The translations under genes and the position numbers were made by a program. Of a stretch of DNA of 64,000 bases, positions 29,116-38,311 are shown in pieces. The notes beneath the pieces are model-generated. The model was not told the origin of the DNA, made no database searches, and saw only the letters and a list, made by a program, of their open reading frames with translations. This stretch comes from Dehalococcoidia bacterium (GTDB taxonomy: Bacteria; Chloroflexota; Dehalococcoidia; UBA2979). Position 1 is the first letter of the stretch. Every line of letters begins with the position of its first letter. Where the stretch lies: NCBI GenBank assembly GCA_965200555.1, contig OZ241365.1:1768442-1832441 (forward strand). The letters are read 5' to 3'.

Positions 29116-29343
29116 CTAGTTCGGCGAGGGCGCGTCGCGGTAGCGGGGCGAGAGGCCGGCCAGCGCCATCTCCGCGATTTCGAGCGCCGACTCCACCGTC
29201 TCCTCGCAGTTCCGCGCCTCAATGGCCTCGCCCAGTTCCTTGACGGCGTCGGCCAGCAGCTCCAGTTCGTCTTCCTCGGCGGCCTGCCGGATGGCGCGCA
29301 GCCGCGTCTCGGGGCTGCCCGTGGGGACGATCGTTCCGCTCAT
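29116..29343 (-). CDS. Small helical hypothetical protein, divergent from the DNA methyltransferase gene
   Basis: 75 aa ([75 protein letters not shown]). The remainder of the listed 143-aa ORF is a GC artefact. No HTH is evident. Confidence 0.35.
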
Positions 29344-29392
29344 CTTCGCGCTCCTCGGAATGCGGCGCCTGTGCTTCGTGGATTGTATGTTC

Positions 29393-29422
29393 TGGACACT
29401 GCGCGCGCAACAGGGCAGAATA
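29393..29422 (+). promoter_or_regulatory. Putative promoter in the AT-richer divergent region upstream of dcm (TGGACA-18-AGAATA)
   Basis: Locally lower-GC stretch between the divergent small ORF and dcm. Valid only if dcm starts at GTG 29456 rather than ATG 29387. Confidence 0.2.
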
Positions 29423-29455
29423 CGCGCCCGTGGGAGTGGCGGGGCGGAGGGCGCA

Positions 29456-30487
29456 GTGGGCGGCGACTTCCGCTTCGTCGATCTGTTCGCGGGCATCGGC
29501 GGCCTGCGCCGGGGCTTCGACGCCGCGGGCGGACGCTGCGTGTTCACCTCCGAGTGGGACAGGCACGCGCAGGCGACCTACCGCGCCAACTTCGGAGACG
29601 CCCCCGATCACGTCATGGCCGGCGACATCCGCGGGGTGGCCGTGGCGGACGTGCCCGAGCACGACCTGCTGCTGGCCGGCTTCCCCTGCCAGCCGTTCTC
29701 GATCGCGGGCGTGAGCAAGAAGAACGCGATCGGCCAGCCGCACGGCTTCCGCTGCGACTCGCAGGGCACGCTGTTCTTCGACGCCGCGCGCATCATCGCC
29801 CACCGCCGCCCCGAGGCGTTCGTGCTCGAGAACGTCAAGAACCTCGTCAACCACGACCGGGGCCGCACCTTCCGCGTCATCCGCGAGACGCTGGAGGACG
29901 ACCTCGGCTACCACGTCACGGCGCGCGTGATCAACGCGAAGGGCTACGTCCCCCAGAACCGCGAGCGCATCTTCATCGCCGGCTTCCGCGACCGCGACGA
30001 CGTGAGCCTCGACGACATGTACGTCCCCGACCCCGGCGACGGGCCGAAGCTGCGCTCCGTCCTCCACCCCGAGGACGGCAACGAGGCGCCGGAGCCCCCC
30101 TACACCGATAGCAAGGGCCGCGTCCGCGACCGCTATGCGCTCACCGACCACCTCTGGCAATACCTGCAGGACTACGCGGAGAAGCACCGGCGGCGCGGCA
30201 ACGGCTTCGGGTTCGGCCTCGTGGGGCCGGAGGACGTGGCGCGCACGCTCTCGGCCCGCTACTACAAGGACGGCTCCGAGATTCTGGTGCGGCGCGAGGG
30301 CGGGAACCCGCGCCGCCTGACGCCTCGCGAGTGCGCGCGGCTCATGGGGTTCGACCGGCCGGGCGAGCCGCCGTTCGCCATCCCGGTCTCCGACACGCAG
30401 GCCTACCGCCAGTTCGGCAACGCCGTCGCCGCGCCGGTCGGGGACGCGGTGGCGGCGTTCGTCGTCCGCCGCCTGCGCGGAGGCTGA
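29456..30487 (+). CDS. dcm: DNA (cytosine-5)-methyltransferase (Dcm/M.EcoRII-like); alternative upstream ATG at 29387
   Basis: All C5-MTase motifs are present: [45 protein letters not shown]. The GTG at 29456 has GGAGGG five nt upstream. Confidence 0.9.
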
Positions 30488-30490
30488 GCG

Positions 30491-30943
30491 ATGGCCGACG
30501 TGGTGGACGCCGCGACGCGCAGCCGCATGATGGCGGGCATCCGCGGGCGCGACACGCGGCCCGAACTCGTGATCCGGCGCGGCCTCCACGCGCGCGGCTA
30601 CCGCTACCGCCTCTACTCGCGCCGCCTGCCGGGCCGCCCCGACCTCGCGTTCACGTCGCGCAAGGCGGTGATCTTCGTCCAGGGCTGCTTCTGGCACGGC
30701 CACGACTGCCCGCTCTTCAGGTGGCCCGCCACCCGCGCCGGGTGGTGGCGCGCGAAGATCGAGGCCACCCGCGAGCGCGACCGCGCCGTGCGCGACCGCC
30801 TCGCCGCGATGGGCTGGCGTCAGCTGCGCGTGTGGGAATGCGCCCTCAAGGGCCCGCAGCGCCGCGATCCAGACGCGGTGCTCGACGAGATCGCCGCGTG
30901 GCTCGACGGCGACGAGCCGGAGCGCGACACGAGGGGGGCGTAA
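30491..30943 (+). CDS. vsr: Very-short-patch-repair endonuclease
   Basis: TRSRMMAGIRGRDTRPE...LPGRPDLAF...AVIFVQGCFWHGHDC...GWRQLRVWEC is the Vsr family signature. It lies directly downstream of dcm. Confidence 0.9.
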   Translation: MADVVDAATRSRMMAGIRGRDTRPELVIRRGLHARGYRYRLYSRRLPGRPDLAFTSRKAVIFVQGCFWHGHDCPLFRWPATRAGWWRAKIEATRERDRAVRDRLAAMGWRQLRVWECALKGPQRRDPDAVLDEIAAWLDGDEPERDTRGA

Positions 30944-32202
30944 TGCCGGTCATGGACCTCGGCGACTGGCTCGACGAGCAGATGGAGATCGCGCTGGCCC
31001 CCATGCTGCTTCAGGACGCCGCCGCCGAACACGGCGTGCTCTGGTATGCCAAACGGCTGTCCGCCAACGACACGCAGGCCACAGGGGGCCACCAGGCTGG
31101 CTTCTACATCCCGAAGCGGATCGCATTCCTGCTTATCCCGTCGCTGCACCAGCCCTCCGAACTGAACCCCCGGGTCGAGTTCGAAATGCTGGTCGACAGT
31201 CACCCCGAGGCACGAGAAGTCCGCGCCATCTGGTACAACAAAAAACTCCACGGCGGCACTAACGATGAAGTGAGGGTGACGGGCCTCGGCGGGGCTTCGC
31301 GTTCGCCGCTACTGGACCCGGCTTTGACTGGCGCACTGGCAGTGTTCGCGTTCCATCAAGGAACGCCGCCGAAAGGACTTGTGTGCCATGTCTGGGTCTG
31401 TGAGCACGACACCGAAGCCGATCTCATCGAAGAACGTATCGGACCAGTCGAAACGGGACAGGGGCGACTATGGCCCGATCTCCTCGCTCCGCTCAATCAG
31501 CCGGGCAGGTGCTGGCTTGAACCGGATGAACTCCCCAGAACCTGGCTCGATAACTATCCCACGGGCGAGGAAGTGCTCAGAAAGGTATTGGAGCTCCGGC
31601 CGGAGCGTTCGGCCAGTGCGGATGCCCGTCTCTCGCGTCGTCGTGATTGCGAGGAGGCGCTGTTCTACAGCATCGAGAATGCCATAGAGTTTCCGAGAAT
31701 ACGCGAGCGGTTCTGGAGTTTCGACAGCTTCGGTGAAATCATCGATCACATGATGCCGAGCATTCAGAGGCGCAGATCGCGCTCGGGCAACTCGCTCCAG
31801 CTCCAGATCCGCGAGATTTTCAGAGAGGAAGGATTGGATGAGGGAACTGACTTCTCCTACCAGCCGATTTCGGAGCGGAGAAACCGCCCGGACTTCCTCT
31901 TTCCGAGCGTAGCTGCCTACCGCGATCAGAAATACCCACAGGACCGGCTCCGGATGCTGGCTGTCAAAACCTCGTTGCGCGACCGCTGGCGGCAAGTGCT
32001 CAGGGAGGCCGACCGCATTGGGAAGAAGCACCTGCTCACGCTGGACACAGCAGTTACCGAGGAACTGCTGAACGATATCGATCAAGCGGACATCCAACTA
32101 GTCGTGCCTCGGTCACTGCATCGGAAGTACCCTGATTCGGCTCGGGCGACGCTACAGACGGTGGAGGAATTCATCGGCGAGGTGCGCGCCCTTGCGGGCT
32201 AG
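30943..32202 (+). CDS. Putative type II restriction endonuclease (EcoRII-like: N-terminal B3-like DNA-binding domain + C-terminal catalytic domain)
   Basis: The ATG overlaps the vsr stop (TAATG). The N-terminal LSANDTQATGGHQAGFYIPK resembles the EcoRII-N effector domain. 419 aa. Markedly lower GC than the surrounding genome. Its position next to Dcm+Vsr fits a CCWGG-type R-M module. Confidence 0.6.
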   Translation: MPVMDLGDWLDEQMEIALAPMLLQDAAAEHGVLWYAKRLSANDTQATGGHQAGFYIPKRIAFLLIPSLHQPSELNPRVEFEMLVDSHPEAREVRAIWYNKKLHGGTNDEVRVTGLGGASRSPLLDPALTGALAVFAFHQGTPPKGLVCHVWVCEHDTEADLIEERIGPVETGQGRLWPDLLAPLNQPGRCWLEPDELPRTWLDNYPTGEEVLRKVLELRPERSASADARLSRRRDCEEALFYSIENAIEFPRIRERFWSFDSFGEIIDHMMPSIQRRRSRSGNSLQLQIREIFREEGLDEGTDFSYQPISERRNRPDFLFPSVAAYRDQKYPQDRLRMLAVKTSLRDRWRQVLREADRIGKKHLLTLDTAVTEELLNDIDQADIQLVVPRSLHRKYPDSARATLQTVEEFIGEVRALAG

Positions 32203-34139: not shown

Positions 34140-35249
34140 ATGAACGGCGATCCGCTGCGTACCCGCTTCTGCGAGGAGCTCGACTGCGAGTTCCCGATCG
34201 TCGCGTTCGCGCACACCCGCGAGGTGATCGCCGCCGTCACCAACGCCGGCGCCGTCGGCGTGCTCGGCGCGACCGGGCTGGAGCCCGACGAGCTCGAACG
34301 CGACATCCGCTGGATCCGCGAGCAGGTCGGCGACAAGGCCTTCGGCGTCGACCTGCTGGTGCCGGCCTCGTTCGTGCAGGGCAACCGCGAGGACCTCGAG
34401 GAGATGATCCCGCAGGAGCACCGCGACTTCGTGGCGGGGCTGATGCGCGACAACGACATCCCGCCGCCGAAGAAGGAGCCCGACGGCGGCATCGACGCGG
34501 GGCTGCTGGAGAAGGCGCAGCGCCAGCTCGACGTGGTGCTGGCGGAGCGGACGCCGATCTTCGCCTCGGGCCTCGGCAGCCCCGCGTTCATCCTCGACCG
34601 CGCGCACGCCGCGGGCACGCGGGTGTGGGGGCTGGTCGGGATGCGCCGTCAGGCGGTGCGCGAGCTCGACGCGAAGGTGGACGGCGTGATCGCGCAAGGC
34701 GGCGACGCGGGCGGCCACAGCGGGCGCATCGGCACCTTCTCGCTGGTGCCGGAGGTGGTGAAGGCGCGCAACGAGCGCAGCCCCGGCAGCCTCGTGCTCG
34801 CGGCCGGCGGCGTCACCACCGGCGCGCACGTCGCGGCGGCGATCGCGCTGGGCGCGGACGCCGTGTGGTGCGGCACCGTCTGGCAGGCCACCGAGGAGTC
34901 CAAGACCGAGGACTACGCCAAGCGCAAGCTGCTCGACGCCGTGGTCGAGGACGCCGTGCAGTCGCGCGCGACGACCGGCAAGCCGGTGCGCCAGGTGCGC
35001 TCCCGCTGGACCGAGGCGTGGGCCGCCCCCGACGCCCCCGACCCCCTGCCGATGCCCCTCCAGCCGATGCTGGTCAAGGAGATCAAGCAGGCGATCGACG
35101 ACCACCACCTCGAGGACTGGAGCGGCCCTCCGGCCGGCCAGGGCGTGGGCCACATCCAGTCGATCAGGCCCGCGCGCCAGGTGGTGCTCGACCTCATGGA
35201 GGAGGCGCGGGACGCCATCGGCCGCCTCGCCGGCGCCCCCGTCGCCTGA
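34140..35249 (+). CDS. Nitronate monooxygenase (2-nitropropane dioxygenase-like, FMN-dependent)
   Basis: NMO family blocks are present (FPIVAFAHT..., GVIAQGGDAGGHSG, LAAGGVTTGAHVAAAIALGADAVWCGT). The ATG at 34140 is internal to the artefactual 989-aa ORF. Confidence 0.85.
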   Translation: MNGDPLRTRFCEELDCEFPIVAFAHTREVIAAVTNAGAVGVLGATGLEPDELERDIRWIREQVGDKAFGVDLLVPASFVQGNREDLEEMIPQEHRDFVAGLMRDNDIPPPKKEPDGGIDAGLLEKAQRQLDVVLAERTPIFASGLGSPAFILDRAHAAGTRVWGLVGMRRQAVRELDAKVDGVIAQGGDAGGHSGRIGTFSLVPEVVKARNERSPGSLVLAAGGVTTGAHVAAAIALGADAVWCGTVWQATEESKTEDYAKRKLLDAVVEDAVQSRATTGKPVRQVRSRWTEAWAAPDAPDPLPMPLQPMLVKEIKQAIDDHHLEDWSGPPAGQGVGHIQSIRPARQVVLDLMEEARDAIGRLAGAPVA

Positions 35250-35255
35250 CGGGGG

Positions 35256-35282
35256 CGCCGCCCCTCGGCCCCTCGGGCGGCG
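35256..35282. terminator. Candidate hairpin between convergent nitronate monooxygenase and PIN-toxin genes
   Basis: cgccgccc-(11 nt)-gggcggcg forms an 8-bp stem in the 60-nt convergent intergenic gap. Confidence 0.3.
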
Positions 35283-35309
35283 GCGTCCGCCCGAGGCGCT
35301 GGCGCCGCG

Positions 35310-35732
35310 TCAGCCGTCGTCGAGCGCGGTCAGCACCTCGACGCCGAGGGCGCGCGCCACGGCGCAGGCGTTCCGGTCGTGCGACATGTACGGCACGCCG
35401 TGCTCGGCCGCGTGGGCGATGATCCAGAGGTCGTTGTCGCCGACCCGCGCCAACCTCAACTCGCGCCGCCGTACGCGCGCGCGGTTGTACCAGGTGGATG
35501 TCGCCTCCACGGCGGGAAGGCGAACGCATTCCCGGTACAGCGCCTCAAGCCGTGCCATCCGTTGCTCCCCCCAATTCCTGCCCGCCAGTTCCGTTTCGGC
35601 AAAGTAAGACAATGCGATCACGCGCTCCCCCAACAGTTCGCGGTAGCGCCTGCCGTGTTGGCTTTGCAAGGTGAAATAGGAGAGTACGGGGGTGTCCACC
35701 ACAACATAGGTGAGAGCACGTCCAGCGGTCAT
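35310..35732 (-). CDS. PIN-domain ribonuclease toxin (VapC-like)
   Basis: N-terminal VVDTPVL... with conserved acidic residues across the domain (..ETE.., ..DNDLWIIAHA..). 140 aa. Its start overlaps the upstream gene by 4 nt. Confidence 0.7.
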   Translation of the reverse strand: MTAGRALTYVVVDTPVLSYFTLQSQHGRRYRELLGERVIALSYFAETELAGRNWGEQRMARLEALYRECVRLPAVEATSTWYNRARVRRRELRLARVGDNDLWIIAHAAEHGVPYMSHDRNACAVARALGVEVLTALDDG

Positions 35733-36667
35733 CGCAACCGTCCCTCATGAATCTCTTGCCGAAAGGCCTCCGCCTCTTCCTCCGTCTCCCAGAGGCCGGA
35801 CAGAAGCGCGAAGTAGTCCGGGGGCGGGCGAAGCAAAAGGCCTTGTTCCCGCGCCAGTTCATCGATCGACTTCGGAGGCAGTTCCACGCCTCGCTCTTCG
35901 GGTTCGAGCAGGCGGATGAGTCCTACTACCCGCTCTGCGATAGTGTCGCCGACGATTGCTTCACTGACATGCAGCTCGGCAAGTTGACCCAGAACAGAGG
36001 GCAGCTCGTGGCGCACGTCCTCTTCGACTGACATAACGATGTTCGAGTCATCCGCGAGCTTGAGGCGCAGACGCTGCCTTCCGGCCTCGACATCGGCCAT
36101 GTACACGTGGCCGAACATGACACGTTGTCGAATCTCAGGTACGGGTTCTTCCTGCAGGGAGAAGTTGGCCGTTAGCGGGATGTGAGCACTGATCTCTTCT
36201 CCGGCTGGCGGATGGTGCACGACTTCGGCGTAATTTCCGATCCTGGCGGCAGATCGCACGAGGCGTTCCACTGCCCGTCGGCGTCCAATTCCCTGAGGGG
36301 TGTACGCCTCATTCCTTGCGTACATTTCCATCTCTTCGACGAGTGTTCGCGTGACGGCCGTCGGCGTGACCTCTTCGTCCCACTGCAACATGCCCTGCTG
36401 ACCGACAGCCGTCGGCGGCTCCGCGAATGCGATATTGACGCTGCCCGGAGACACGGAAGCCACGCGCAAACCGGCCAGCGACAGCTCAAGCGGGTTCAGC
36501 GGGCCGCGCCGGGGTCCCAAGGCAAGCTTCTCATCGGCGATCACGCGGGCGGCTCCGGCGATGTCCTGCAGCAGCTGGCCGAGGGCGCGGGCATCGACGC
36601 CCGCGTCCATGTCGCCATCCACCCGGAACAGCAGCCACGGCCGCCCTGCGGTGCTGTCAGTCGTCAT
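35729..36667 (-). CDS. 312-aa protein of unknown function, translationally coupled upstream partner of the PIN toxin (candidate atypical antitoxin/regulator)
   Basis: Protein-like ORF in a lower-GC patch. It ends ...ELPPKSIDELAREQGLLLRPPPDYFALLSGLWETEEEAEAFRQEIHEGRLR and overlaps the PIN gene start (ATGA). No HTH/RHH/AbrB-type antitoxin motif is recognisable. Confidence 0.5.
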   Translation of the reverse strand: MTTDSTAGRPWLLFRVDGDMDAGVDARALGQLLQDIAGAARVIADEKLALGPRRGPLNPLELSLAGLRVASVSPGSVNIAFAEPPTAVGQQGMLQWDEEVTPTAVTRTLVEEMEMYARNEAYTPQGIGRRRAVERLVRSAARIGNYAEVVHHPPAGEEISAHIPLTANFSLQEEPVPEIRQRVMFGHVYMADVEAGRQRLRLKLADDSNIVMSVEEDVRHELPSVLGQLAELHVSEAIVGDTIAERVVGLIRLLEPEERGVELPPKSIDELAREQGLLLRPPPDYFALLSGLWETEEEAEAFRQEIHEGRLR

Positions 36668-36769
36668 GGCCCCTCGCGAACGGCAGCATAGCAGACACCG
36701 CCCATGCCCTGCGCGATCCCCGTGGCGGGCCGCCCTCGCGTCACGCCCTGATCGCCGGCGCCCGCGCCT

Positions 36770-38311
36770 TCACGCGCCCGCGCGCTGCGCGGCGACGTTG
36801 AGCAGGCGGTTGAGCGCGTGCATGTAGGCGCGCGCCGACGCCACGAGGATGTCGGTGTCGGCGGCGCGGCCCGTGTAGGTGTAGCCCGCGGCCTCGATGC
36901 GGATCGTGACCTCGCCGACGGCGTCGATGCCCTCGGTCACGGACTTGACGCTGAACTCGGTCAGCTCGTTCTCCACGCCCATCACGCGGTTGATCGCCTG
37001 GTAGATGGCGTCCACCGGGCCCGTGCCGATCGCCGCGTCCTGCCGCGTCCCGCCGTCGGGGGCGGTCAGCCGCACCGTCGCCGTCGGCGCCGAGTGGTCG
37101 CCGGCCGTGACCTGCACGAGGTCCAGCCGCCACTGGTCGTGCACCGTCACCGAGGCCTGCTCGGCGAGGATGGCGTGGAGGTCGCGGTCGTCGACCTCGT
37201 CCTTGCGGTCGGCGACGTCCTGGAACGCCTCGTAGACGCGGGCCAGCGCCTCCTCCTCGAGCTCGACGCCGAGGTCGGAGATGCGGGCGCGCAGCCCGTG
37301 GCGGCCGGAGAGCTTGGTCAGCACGATCGAGTCGCCGGCGGGGATGCCGATCGAGGAGGGGTCCATGATCTCGTAGGTCTCGCGCAGCTTGAGCACGCCG
37401 TCCTGGTGGATGCCGGAGGAGTGGCGGAAGGCGTTGCGCCCGACCACCGCCTTGTTGGACTGGACGGCCATGCCGGAGACGCGCTCGACGAGGCGGCTGG
37501 CGCGGTAGAGCTCCTCGGTGCGGACGCCGGTGCTGAGGCCGGTGAAGTCGCCGCGCGTGCGGATCGCCATGATCACCTCTTCGAGCGAGGTGTTGCCCGC
37601 GCGCTCGCCGATGCCGTTGATCGCGCCCTCCACCTGGCGCGCGCCCGCCAGCACGCCGGCCAGCGAGTTGGCCGTGGCCATGCCGAGGTCGTTGTGGCAG
37701 TGGACGGAGACGCGGGCGCGGCCGATGTCCGGCACGGTCTCGCGCAGCGAGGCGATGAGCGCGCCGAACTCCTGCGGGATGGCGTAGCCGACGGTGTCGG
37801 GGACGTTGACGGTGGTCGCGCCCTCCTCGATCGCGGCCTGCAGCAGCTGCGCGACGAACCCGGGGTCGGAGCGCGTGGCGTCCATCGGCGAGAACTCGAC
37901 GTCGGGGCAGTAGCCGGCGGCGCGGGCGACGGCGGCGCGCGCCATCTCCATCACGTCCTCGCGGTTCTTGTGCAGCTGGTGCGCCATGTGGATCTCGCTG
38001 GCCGAGATGAAGACGTGGATGCGCGGCGTCTCGGCCTGCGAGACGGCGTTCCAGCAGGCGTCCACGTCGGCGGCGCTGGCCCGCGCGAGGCCGGCGATGA
38101 CCGGCCCCCGCACCTCGCGCGCGATCAGCGAGACCGCCTCGAAGTCGCCGGGCGAGGAGAACGGAAAGCCCGCCTCGATGATGTCCACCTCGAGGCGCGC
38201 GAGCTGCCTCGCCACCTCCAGCTTGTCCTCGATCGTGAAGCCGATGCCCGCCGACTGCTCGCCGTCGCGGAGCGTCGTGTCGAAGATGTATACCTTGTCG
38301 CTGTCGCTCAT
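36770..38311 (-). CDS. leuA: 2-isopropylmalate synthase
   Basis: IFDTTLRDGEQSAG..., HCHNDLGMATANSLAGV..., and the C-terminal LeuA dimerisation/regulatory domain are present. Confidence 0.95.
   Translation of the reverse strand: MSDSDKVYIFDTTLRDGEQSAGIGFTIEDKLEVARQLARLEVDIIEAGFPFSSPGDFEAVSLIAREVRGPVIAGLARASAADVDACWNAVSQAETPRIHVFISASEIHMAHQLHKNREDVMEMARAAVARAAGYCPDVEFSPMDATRSDPGFVAQLLQAAIEEGATTVNVPDTVGYAIPQEFGALIASLRETVPDIGRARVSVHCHNDLGMATANSLAGVLAGARQVEGAINGIGERAGNTSLEEVIMAIRTRGDFTGLSTGVRTEELYRASRLVERVSGMAVQSNKAVVGRNAFRHSSGIHQDGVLKLRETYEIMDPSSIGIPAGDSIVLTKLSGRHGLRARISDLGVELEEEALARVYEAFQDVADRKDEVDDRDLHAILAEQASVTVHDQWRLDLVQVTAGDHSAPTATVRLTAPDGGTRQDAAIGTGPVDAIYQAINRVMGVENELTEFSVKSVTEGIDAVGEVTIRIEAAGYTYTGRAADTDILVASARAYMHALNRLLNVAAQRAGA

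What the first reader, a model, noticed from the sequence alone, without database searches (positions are those of the whole stretch)
35310..36667. PIN-domain toxin translationally coupled to an unusually large (312 aa) upstream partner of unknown fold, in a lower-GC patch
The arrangement is classic toxin-antitoxin-like (upstream gene overlapping the PIN gene start by ATGA). The upstream protein is three to four times the size of typical VapB antitoxins. It has no recognisable RHH, AbrB, Phd or HTH DNA-binding motif.

Its C-terminus (SIDELAREQGLLLRPPPDYFALLSGLWETEEEAEAFRQEIHEGRL) looks like a toxin-neutralising tail. The segment 35.75-36.67 kb is distinctly lower in GC.

This may be an uncharacterised PIN-associated system, with a sensor or effector N-terminal domain fused to an antitoxin-like tail. 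It lies next to the R-M island.
Basis: partly seen in the sequence, partly recalled or inferred. Interest (0 to 1): 0.6.

Follow-up and report, generated by a model that had tools for sequence, protein, structure and literature searches.

The report
PIN toxin with oversized modular antitoxin
This is a horizontally acquired two-gene toxin-antitoxin module in which a PIN-domain RNase is paired with an unusually large partner: a conserved ~55-residue toxin-binding tail, which elsewhere exists on its own as a 67-77-residue antitoxin, joined to a ~255-residue N-terminal module (an uncharacterised domain plus an OB-like barrel) of unknown role.

Summary
On the minus strand, a 312-aa ORF (35729-36667) overlaps a 140-aa PIN ORF (35310-35732) by ATGA. 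The pair sits in a compositionally foreign patch (GC 0.63-0.66 against 0.75 for the window).

The 312-aa protein matches nothing in Pfam, NCBIfam, PADLOC, PHROGs or PDB sequences. It belongs to a small family (74 clusters at 50% identity), and the genome hits were all Chloroflexota MAGs. Every intact homologue examined has a PIN gene directly downstream. This holds down to 33% identity and in at least four genomic contexts. In one locus both genes are decayed.

The C-terminal ~55 residues also occur alone, as 67-77-aa proteins directly upstream of related PIN genes that keep the conserved acidic residues. The tail is therefore the PIN-cognate, presumably neutralising, module.

Structure prediction splits the rest in two. 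Residues 1-172 form a confident domain (pTM 0.80) with no significant Foldseek match in the PDB. Residues 173-255 form an OB-like barrel. The whole protein is acidic and shows no DNA-binding motif.

Verdict: a VapBC-type module with a new antitoxin architecture. The role of the N-terminal module (sensor, scaffold or regulator) is unresolved. Toxicity and neutralisation are inferred, not tested.

The parts
35729..36667 (-). Gene for the 312-aa antitoxin-like protein ('A'); stop codon at 35729-35731
   Evidence: ORF. The family has 23 word-search hits and 74 clusters at 50% identity, most of them 305-320 aa. It is conserved along its whole length.
36152..36667 (-). A residues 1-172: N-terminal alpha/beta domain (b-a-a-b-b, loop, a-a-b-b). 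Its core, residues 10-85, is the most conserved part of the protein.
   Evidence: The AF2 model of this domain alone has pLDDT 81.7 and pTM 0.80. Best Foldseek match in the PDB is E 0.48, TM<=0.23. BFVD gives an uncharacterised Myoviridae protein at E 4.3e-5, TM 0.57. Mean pairwise identity of residues 10-85 is 42%.
35903..36151 (-). A residues 173-255: OB-like five-stranded barrel (b1-b2-b3, helix, b4-b5). G186, M190, D192, R199 and R201 are conserved.
   Evidence: Secondary-structure order. Most of the top Foldseek PDB hits are OB-fold proteins (eIF5A, CsaA, LysRS N-domain, Stn1/Ten1, eIF1A, LEF-3, Teb1), but the best E is only 1.6e-3. Conserved residues.
35732..35902 (-). A residues 256-312: three-helix acidic tail (PPKSIDELAREQGL..PDY..L..LWETEEEAEAF..I..GR), the PIN-cognate module
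   Evidence: Helices 268-274, 285-292 and 296-311. The same tail forms 67-77-aa proteins directly upstream of PIN genes in L022, L027-29, L030 and L031. Tail and PIN identities co-vary, r=0.93.
35310..35732 (-). Gene for the 140-aa PIN-domain (VapC-like) toxin
   Evidence: PF01850 E 4.3e-9. D13, E48, D99, D101 and D119 are invariant in the ten partner PINs aligned. Nearest solved structures are VapC 6nkl (profile E 9.5e-7) and M. tuberculosis 3dbo_B (E 7.8e-5).
35729..35732 (-). ATGA stop/start overlap (translational coupling)
   Evidence: Sequence. The same 4-nt overlap occurs in L001, L002, L006, L007 and L012, and as GTGA in L022.
36670..36690 (-). Putative own expression signals: -10-like TATGCT (36685-36690) and GAGGGG ribosome-binding site (36670-36675)
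   Evidence: A TAnGCT element 25-30 nt before the ATG recurs upstream of homologues in unrelated contexts. The consensus sigma-70 scan found no promoter, so this is weak.
35231..35299 (.). Two GC-rich hairpins (35231-35260, 13-nt perfect arms; 35268-35299) between the PIN stop and the convergent monooxygenase stop
   Evidence: Inverted repeats I6 and I9. Neither has a T-tract, and neither was called a terminator by the scan.

Best explanation
**What it is.** This is a type II, VapBC-like toxin-antitoxin module acquired by horizontal transfer. The 140-aa PIN protein is an Mg-dependent RNase toxin; by analogy with VapC its targets would be tRNA or rRNA. The 312-aa protein is its antitoxin.

**Neutralisation.** It resides in the C-terminal ~55 residues. 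These form three short helices that are inferred to wrap the PIN domain. The nearly invariant Arg310 is inferred to sit near the acidic active site.

**The N-terminal module.** Residues 1-255 comprise a domain with no solved-structure neighbour plus an OB-like barrel. This module is an accessory that is not needed for neutralisation, because related PINs keep only the tail as their partner. It takes the place of the usual DNA-binding/dimerisation domain. It most likely acts as a protein- or ligand-binding regulatory module that controls the stability or oligomerisation of the antitoxin, or that senses a trigger.

**Release of the toxin.** When the antitoxin is lost or displaced, free PIN cleaves RNA and growth stops.

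**Shown here:**
- gene anatomy;
- PIN membership and intact acidic residues;
- strict synteny with PIN;
- modularity of the tail;
- foreign base composition.

**Inferred:**
- toxicity;
- binding geometry;
- RNA target;
- any role of the N-terminal module.
For: - **Anatomy:** ATGA-coupled gene pair.
- **Toxin:** PF01850 hit above the gathering score. The PIN acidic residues are invariant across ten partner PINs. The PIN profile matches solved VapC 6nkl at E 9.5e-7.
- **Synteny:** a PIN gene lies directly downstream of every intact homologue: L001/L008, L002/L010, L003-5, L006, L007, L009, L012, L016, L017/18 and L025. This holds down to 33% identity and in at least four genomic contexts. In L011 both genes are decayed.
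- **Tail-only partners:** proteins of 67, 68, 74 and 77 aa sit directly upstream of related PINs in L027-29, L022, L030 and L031. L022's PIN keeps all five acidic residues in the alignment, and the L027 and L030 translations show the same motifs. In L027 the upstream gene is intact, so the short form is not a deletion scar.
- **Gain or loss of the N-module:** the long-form L025 PIN and tail are closer to the short-form modules than to other long forms.
- **Charge:** antitoxin pI 4.8, toxin pI 8.7.
- **Selection on the N-module:** its core (residues 10-85) is the most conserved stretch of the protein, so the module is under selection.
- **Origin:** compositionally foreign.
Against: - No toxicity, binding or neutralisation was tested, and no complex model could be run.
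- The PIN scores far below NCBIfam's VapC equivalog cut-off (16 against 80 bits).
- The antitoxin lacks the DNA-binding domain that defines classical VapB proteins.
- No conserved operator-like palindrome lies upstream.
- Some tail-bearing proteins have no PIN neighbour (L013/14, L019-21, L023/24). The tail is therefore not exclusively PIN-linked.
- The tail matches no solved VapB structure or curated family.
- Co-variation of the tail with PIN (r=0.93) is no stronger than that of the N-module with PIN (r=0.93). It therefore does not single out the tail.
Confidence: 0.7

Rival explanations
1. This would be a classical autoregulated TA module in which the N-terminal module is the nucleic-acid-binding part. 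The OB-like barrel, with the N-domain as dimeriser, would bind the promoter DNA or the module's own mRNA. It would thus replace the AbrB, RHH, Phd or HTH domain of ordinary VapB proteins.
For: - The architecture (N-terminal folded part, C-terminal neutralising tail) is that of classical modular antitoxins (PMC10440598).
- OB folds commonly bind nucleic acids, and the top Foldseek hits are mostly RNA/ssDNA-binding OB proteins.
- R199 and R201 on the barrel are invariant or nearly invariant.
Against: - All three parts of the protein are net acidic on average across the family (window: -5, -7, -7).
- No conserved palindrome lies upstream in ten loci.
- Short-form antitoxins of related PINs have no folded N-terminal domain at all.
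- L012 lacks most of the barrel but keeps the rest.
- The OB assignment itself is weak (best E 1.6e-3).
Confidence: 0.2
2. This would be an abortive-infection defence system. The N-terminal module would be a sensor that recognises a phage protein or nucleic acid and then releases the PIN nuclease. Phages would counter with orphan copies of the tail.
For: - The pair is a foreign insertion 3 kb from an EcoRII-type R-M/Vsr island.
- Homologues lie beside a HicA gene, an IS1595 transposase, or near a type I R-M S subunit.
- The only structural neighbours of the N-domain are uncharacterised phage proteins.
- Tail-bearing proteins without a PIN neighbour sit in phage-like gene strings. One of these strings comes from the same metagenome project and has the same GC as the window lineage.
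- Orphan antitoxins in phages have precedent for DarTG (PMC11257639; 10.1101/2023.12.14.571748).
Against: - Neither protein hits any PADLOC model.
- The family has no relative in the phage, plasmid or IMG/VR collections.
- The immediate neighbours in the window are housekeeping genes.
- There is no experimental link to phage.
- The phage nature of the orphan-tail contigs rests on a few PHROG hits of unknown function.
Confidence: 0.18
3. The 312-aa protein would not be an antitoxin. It would be a substrate-recruiting or activating subunit of a non-toxic PIN RNase working in RNA processing. The OB barrel would bring in RNA and the tail would only dock the nuclease.
For: - Strict co-occurrence and translational coupling fit any obligate two-subunit enzyme.
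- The top structural matches to the barrel are mostly RNA- and tRNA-binding OB domains.
Against: - The distribution is patchy and mobile, with varied insertion sites and foreign GC. This argues against a housekeeping role.
- Both genes decayed together in L011.
- Related PINs work with a 67-aa partner that has no RNA-binding domain.
- The acidic partner and basic PIN fit the TA pattern.
Confidence: 0.08

Closest known systems
VapBC type II toxin-antitoxin modules (PIN toxin VapC plus antitoxin VapB; solved examples include 6nkl and M. tuberculosis VapBC5, 3dbo)
   Same: - A PIN toxin with the conserved acidic residues.
- The antitoxin gene lies upstream and is translationally coupled.
- An acidic antitoxin is paired with a basic toxin.
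- The neutralising region sits at the antitoxin C-terminus and is predicted helical.
- The module is mobile and patchily distributed.
   Different: - The antitoxin is 312 aa instead of about 70-90 aa.
- It has no AbrB, RHH, Phd or HTH DNA-binding domain. Instead it carries a domain with no solved-structure neighbour plus an OB-like barrel.
- The tail matches no VapB family or solved structure by sequence.
- The PIN scores below NCBIfam's VapC equivalog cut-off.
Antitoxins without a DNA-binding domain, such as PaaA2 of the paaR2-paaA2-parE2 module (recalled from my own knowledge, not tested here)
   Same: The 67-77-aa tail-only relatives of this antitoxin consist of little more than a toxin-binding segment, as PaaA2 does.
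   Different: The toxin family is different (ParE, not PIN). No third regulator gene is seen here. The window protein is the long form, not the minimal one.
Panacea-domain (PanA) antitoxins and other multi-domain antitoxins of the NetFlax network (PMC10440598)
   Same: A folded accessory domain that is not a classical DNA binder is joined to a short toxin-specific neutralising element. The architecture is modular.
   Different: The window protein has no sequence similarity to Panacea (no Pfam hit). The N-module was found only with PIN toxins of one clade, not with many toxin families. The family was found only in Chloroflexota MAGs.
OB-fold nucleic-acid-binding domains (eIF5A C-domain, CsaA/Trbp111, LysRS anticodon-binding domain, Stn1/Ten1, RPA-like)
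   Same: The predicted b1-b2-b3-helix-b4-b5 order matches. These proteins dominate the top Foldseek hits for residues 173-255.
   Different: The matches are weak (E 1.6e-3 to 0.1; TM normalised to target 0.27-0.49) and there is no sequence similarity. The domain is net acidic. An OB-like barrel inside an antitoxin did not turn up in the literature search run here.

Membership tests
VapBC-type type II toxin-antitoxin module | Toxin is a PIN domain with the conserved acidic active-site residues | tested here: met
   PF01850 scores E 4.3e-9, 37.5 bits against a cut-off of 23.6. D13, E48, D99, D101 and D119 are invariant in ten partner PINs. The profile matches solved VapC 6nkl at E 9.5e-7.
VapBC-type type II toxin-antitoxin module | Antitoxin gene lies immediately upstream in the same operon, often overlapping the toxin start | tested here: met
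   ATGA overlap at 35729-35732. The same overlap or a gap of at most 13 nt occurs in all homologous loci.
VapBC-type type II toxin-antitoxin module | The two genes are conserved as a pair across genomes and contexts | tested here: met
   A PIN gene lies downstream of every intact homologue, in at least four genomic contexts. Both genes are decayed in L011.
VapBC-type type II toxin-antitoxin module | Antitoxin carries an N-terminal DNA-binding domain (AbrB, RHH, Phd/YefM or HTH) for autoregulation | tested here: not met
   There is no Pfam or NCBIfam hit at E<=1. The predicted folds are a domain with no solved-structure neighbour and an OB-like barrel. The protein is acidic. No conserved operator palindrome was found.
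VapBC-type type II toxin-antitoxin module | Antitoxin C-terminal region binds and neutralises the toxin | tested here: inconclusive
   Support is indirect. The tail alone is the partner of related PINs that keep the conserved acidic residues.
VapBC-type type II toxin-antitoxin module | Toxin arrests growth and the antitoxin rescues | not testable with these tools
   This needs expression assays.
NCBIfam NF047959 (VapC family toxin, equivalog) | Score at or above the curated cut-off of 80 bits | tested here: not met
   The score is 16.3 bits, E 0.0076. The toxin is a PIN-domain protein but not a member of that specific equivalog model.
OB-fold domain | Five-stranded closed barrel with a helix between strands 3 and 4, and a significant structural match to known OB folds | tested here: inconclusive
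Known anti-phage defence systems (PADLOC-DB 2.0) | Either protein matches a model of a described defence system | tested here: not met
   Neither protein has a hit at E<=1.

The most novel reading that the evidence does not exclude
The N-terminal module (uncharacterised domain plus OB-like barrel) would be a trigger sensor that turns a minimal tail-only VapBC-like module into an abortive-infection defence system. The orphan tail proteins on phage-like contigs from the same habitat, such as the DUF1828-tail fusion P0023 and the 53-aa P0095, would be phage-encoded antitoxin mimics that keep the PIN silenced during infection.
Probability: 0.15. Interest if true: 0.7.

Novelty: new variant of a known kind. 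Interest (0 to 1): 0.45.

Why it matters
PIN/VapC modules are the most numerous toxin-antitoxin family. Their antitoxins are usually small proteins made of a DNA-binding domain plus a tail.

Here the same toxin-binding tail occurs in nature in three forms:
- alone, as 67-77-aa proteins;
- fused to a ~255-aa two-domain module that no family library recognises and whose first domain has no solved structural neighbour;
- fused to other N-termini, such as DUF1828.

This gives a ready-made natural comparison of long and short forms. It can be used to ask what an accessory domain adds to an antitoxin: trigger sensing, stability or regulation. That is the open question for TA systems proposed to act in phage defence.

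The finding also adds a candidate new domain family, so far found only in Chloroflexota MAGs.

Tried and rejected
**Sequence searches**
- Searches of the 312-aa protein against Pfam, NCBIfam, PADLOC and PHROGs found nothing. The same was true of the family profile against PDB sequences.
- The tail profile and ten tail-only proteins matched nothing in PDB, Pfam or NCBIfam.
- A second database search with the 42-sequence profile added only two members. A search with the tail profile returned four short proteins.
- tblastn of the protein against the phage and plasmid collections found no match.
- Rfam found nothing in 34800-37200.

**Locus searches**
- Narrower alignments gave 7 genome loci and 2 metagenome loci, and none in IMG/VR.

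**Structure searches**

**Other checks that led nowhere**
- No operator-like palindrome or consensus promoter or terminator was found upstream.
- hhalign of the family profile against the DUF1828-tail protein aligned only the tail. The N-module is therefore not a hidden DUF1828.
- The mirror-tree correlation does not discriminate between tail and N-module.
- A guessed accession for Leptospira phage LE1, a weak structural neighbour of the N-domain, was not in the collection.

**Readings rejected**
- A chance ORF, because the family is conserved at full length.
- A metabolic enzyme, because there is no family match.
- A TAC system, because there is no SecB-like third gene.
Full report
**1. The observation**

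The minus strand carries a 312-aa ORF (35729..36667, ATG) and a 140-aa ORF (35310..35732, ATG). The junction reads cgATGAcc, so the stop of the first gene and the start of the second share four bases.

The 140-aa protein is a PIN domain: PF01850, E 4.3e-9, 37.5 bits against a gathering score of 23.6. The 312-aa protein (called A below) has no match at E<=1 in Pfam, NCBIfam, PADLOC or PHROGs beyond one 12-bit noise hit. A profile of its family finds nothing in PDB sequences.

GC falls to 0.59-0.64 between about 35.4 and 36.4 kb, against 0.72-0.78 on either side. The genes have GC 0.632 and 0.66 against 0.747 for the window. Their GC3 is 0.64-0.85 against 0.994 for the adjacent leuA. The pair is therefore compositionally foreign.

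The pair lies between leuA (36773-38311, minus strand, part of an ilvB-ilvN-ilvC-leuA string) and a convergent nitronate monooxygenase gene. The Dcm methylase / Vsr / EcoRII-like endonuclease island ends at 32199. Three ordinary genes separate it from the pair. No Rfam family matches the region.

**2. The family and its partner**

A belongs to a small family.
- A word-indexed search found 23 proteins, of which 21 are full or nearly full length at 43-97% identity.
- An exhaustive phmmer scan of 1.84 billion cluster representatives found 74 hits: 53 at E<=1e-10 and 31 at E<=1e-30. Most are 305-320 aa and align end to end.
- The 42-member alignment is conserved throughout. W11, A44, G55, P84 and R201 are invariant. 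G75-S76, D192, R199, Y285 and R310 are nearly so.
- In GTDB representative genomes, the seven hits are all MAGs labelled Tepidiformaceae or Dehalococcoidia, which are Chloroflexota.

Gene neighbourhoods and tblastn show a PIN ORF directly downstream of every intact homologue:
- L001/L008, L002/L010, L005, L006, L007, L009, L012, L016, L017/18 and L025;
- L003/L004, where the PIN ORF is present but was not called.

This holds down to 33% identity (L025). It also holds in at least four contexts:
- leuA-monooxygenase (the window and L017/18);
- a uvrC-proximal site next to two CoA-transferase genes (L002-L005; also L007, L009, L012 and L011, judged by shared upstream sequence);
- beside an IS1595 transposase (L016);
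- a YscW-domain region (L001).

In L011 gene A is frameshifted and the PIN is truncated, so the two genes decayed together.

**3. The tail is a separable, PIN-cognate module**

In the exhaustive scan, the last ~50 residues of A alone matched many short proteins of 60-145 aa (sequences). Four of these were placed on contigs:
- P0090 (67 aa, L027-29) lies 13 nt upstream of a 152-aa PIN gene. The upstream FAD-oxidoreductase gene is intact, so the short form is not a deletion scar.
- P0092 (74 aa, L030) lies 3 nt upstream of a 148-aa PIN in an unrelated suf-operon context.
- P0081 (77 aa, L031) is followed by the start of a PIN ORF at the contig end.
- In L022 a 68-aa tail-only ORF overlaps a PIN ORF by GTGA.

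In the alignment of ten partner PINs, which includes L022's, D13, E48, D99, D101 and D119 are invariant. The L027 and L030 PIN translations show the same DT, AEL, GDADVWI and SHDR motifs.

Across 11 modules, tail identity and PIN identity co-vary (r=0.93). The long-form module of L025 is closer, in both tail and PIN, to the short-form modules than to other long forms. The N-terminal 255 residues have therefore been gained or lost within one tail/PIN lineage.

This is the strongest evidence available here that the tail is the toxin-binding, presumably neutralising, element. It also shows that the rest of A is not required for that role. The evidence is comparative, not a binding test. The N-module co-varies with PIN equally well (r=0.93), so co-variation alone does not single out the tail.

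**4. Anatomy of the 312-aa protein**

An AF2 model built from 24 family sequences has pLDDT 76.7 and pTM 0.57. It shows three parts.

- **Residues 1-172.** The order is strand, long helix, short helix, two strands, a disordered loop (89-96), two helices, two strands. Modelled alone, this domain reaches pLDDT 81.7 and pTM 0.80. Foldseek finds no significant neighbour in the PDB (best E 0.48, TM<=0.23). In BFVD it matches an uncharacterised Myoviridae protein (A0A8S5T657; E 4.3e-5, TM 0.57). It matches a Leptospira phage LE1 protein more weakly (E 0.034). Its core, residues 10-85, is the most conserved stretch of the protein: 42% mean pairwise identity, against 38% for the tail and 36% for the barrel.
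- **Residues 173-255.** The order is b1-b2-b3, helix, b4-b5, which is the OB order. Most of the top 50 Foldseek PDB hits for the whole model are OB-fold proteins (eIF5A, CsaA, LysRS anticodon-binding domain, Stn1/Ten1, eIF1A, LEF-3, Teb1). None reaches E 1e-3 and the TM scores are low. I therefore call it OB-like, with moderate confidence.
- **Residues 256-312.** Three helices at 268-274, 285-292 and 296-311 form the tail.

**5. Mechanism**

The best-supported reading is a VapBC-type type II module.

Shown here:
- a PIN with intact acidic residues;
- the closest solved relatives are VapC proteins: 6nkl (profile E 9.5e-7) and 3dbo_B (E 7.8e-5);
- a coupled upstream partner;
- strict synteny;
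- an acidic partner with a basic PIN;
- mobility.

Inferred from VapBC knowledge:
- the tail helices wrap the PIN and block its active site;
- the nearly invariant C-terminal Arg310 is a candidate active-site plug, as described for FitA and other VapB-like antitoxins (from my own knowledge, not tested here);
- loss of the antitoxin frees the RNase to cut tRNA or rRNA.

The N-module replaces the usual DNA-binding/dimerisation domain (classical architecture as summarised in PMC10440598). Four observations argue against a DNA-binding autoregulator:
- the module is acidic;
- ten loci show no conserved operator-like palindrome upstream, only a -10-like TAnGCT and a GAGGGG ribosome-binding site;
- short forms lack any folded N-terminus;
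- L012 lacks most of the barrel but keeps the N-domain, tail and PIN.

I therefore favour a protein- or ligand-binding regulatory role (stability, oligomerisation or trigger sensing). I cannot choose between these.

**6. Rivals**

- **(a) OB-based nucleic-acid-binding autoregulator, about 0.2.** This is supported by the architecture and by the conserved R199/R201. The points listed in section 5 argue against it.
- **(b) Abortive-infection defence with the N-module as sensor, about 0.18.** See section 7. Against it, there is no PADLOC hit and no relative in the phage, plasmid or IMG/VR collections.
- **(c) Non-toxic two-subunit RNase, about 0.08.** The mobile, patchy distribution, the joint decay in L011 and the 67-aa partners argue against it.

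**7. Tails without a PIN**

Some tail-bearing proteins have no PIN neighbour.
- P0023 (215 aa) is a weak DUF1828 domain plus a tail 62% identical to the window's. It sits in a string of small ORFs. The next gene hits phrog_19090 at E 3e-30.
- That contig has GC 0.749, against 0.747 for the window. It comes from the same metagenome project as L017, the 97%-identical copy of the window pair.
- P0095 (53 aa) lies just upstream of phage-type DNA methyltransferases.
- P0098 (69 aa) has no PIN within 3.8 kb.

hhalign confirms that only the tail is shared with A. Phages carrying orphan antitoxin-like proteins are documented for DarTG (PMC11257639; 10.1101/2023.12.14.571748). Phage-borne tail mimics are therefore a legitimate but untested reading. 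Equally, these cases show that the tail is not exclusively PIN-linked.

**8. Comparison with what is known, and novelty**

The module works like VapBC. It meets the toxin, operon and synteny criteria. It fails the criterion of an N-terminal DNA-binding domain, and its PIN scores below NCBIfam's VapC equivalog cut-off (16.3 against 80 bits).

It resembles PanA-type and other multi-domain antitoxins in logic (accessory fold plus a short neutralising element) but not in sequence. A literature search for OB-fold antitoxins of PIN toxins returned nothing relevant, and the NetFlax paper does not mention an OB fold.

I rate it a new variant of a known kind: an ordinary class of module with an undescribed antitoxin architecture and a candidate new domain family.

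Interest is 0.45. A TA specialist would find the natural long, short and orphan series useful rather than astonishing.

Noticed in passing
L013/L014 4001-4648; L023 1573-1734 and L024 1086-1247; L019 605-814: Proteins carrying the same C-terminal tail have no PIN gene nearby. They include a DUF1828-tail fusion (215 aa) and 53-aa and 69-aa tail-only proteins. Two of them sit in phage-like gene strings (phrog_19090; phage-type DNA methyltransferases). The L013 contig has the same GC as the window and comes from the same metagenome project as the window's 97% homologue. They may be phage antitoxin mimics.
   Followed up: partly
L002 8288-8389; L005 8784-8867; L009 5891-6034: Duplicates of the PIN gene's 3' end (about 85-145 nt) lie 0.5-1.4 kb downstream of the intact PIN. 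In L002 and L005, where neighbours were listed, they sit just before the CoA-transferase gene, with unannotated ORFs in between. L003/L004 lack the insert and have a PIN with an altered C-terminus. This looks like an insertion or recombination hot spot at the PIN 3' end.
   Followed up: partly
L011 4001-5240: In one Dehalococcoidia MAG both genes are decayed. The antitoxin gene is frameshifted and the PIN ORF is truncated after about 25 recognisable residues.
   Followed up: yes
L012 4001-4783: A 260-aa variant of the antitoxin lacks most of the OB-like barrel but keeps the N-domain, the tail and an intact PIN partner. It could be a real deletion or an assembly error.
   Followed up: partly
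window 29222-32199: A C-5 cytosine methylase, a Vsr mismatch endonuclease and an EcoRII-like restriction endonuclease lie in a row. The endonuclease part forms a second low-GC patch (0.59-0.63) in a genome of about 0.75 GC.
   Followed up: partly
window 35227-35241 and 36752-36766: A 15-nt direct repeat, TCGCCGGCGCCC(C/G)CG with 14 of 15 bases identical, brackets the gene pair. In sequence this GC-rich it may be chance.
   Followed up: no
window 35231-35299: Two GC-rich hairpins without T-tracts lie between the convergent stops of the PIN gene and the monooxygenase gene.
   Followed up: no
L002 5446-5888: A HicA toxin gene with a 78-aa upstream ORF sits directly upstream of the homologous pair, so two TA-like modules lie side by side.
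   Followed up: no
window 36773-38311: The leuA gene next to the pair has a GC3 of 0.994, an extreme codon bias that makes foreign insertions easy to see in this genome.
   Followed up: no
window 36152-36667 (residues 1-172 of the 312-aa protein): The only structural neighbours of the N-terminal domain are uncharacterised phage proteins in BFVD: A0A8S5T657 from a Myoviridae MAG (E 4.3e-5, TM 0.57) and Q6NE06 of Leptospira phage LE1 (E 0.034). Their genomic contexts could not be retrieved.
   Followed up: partly
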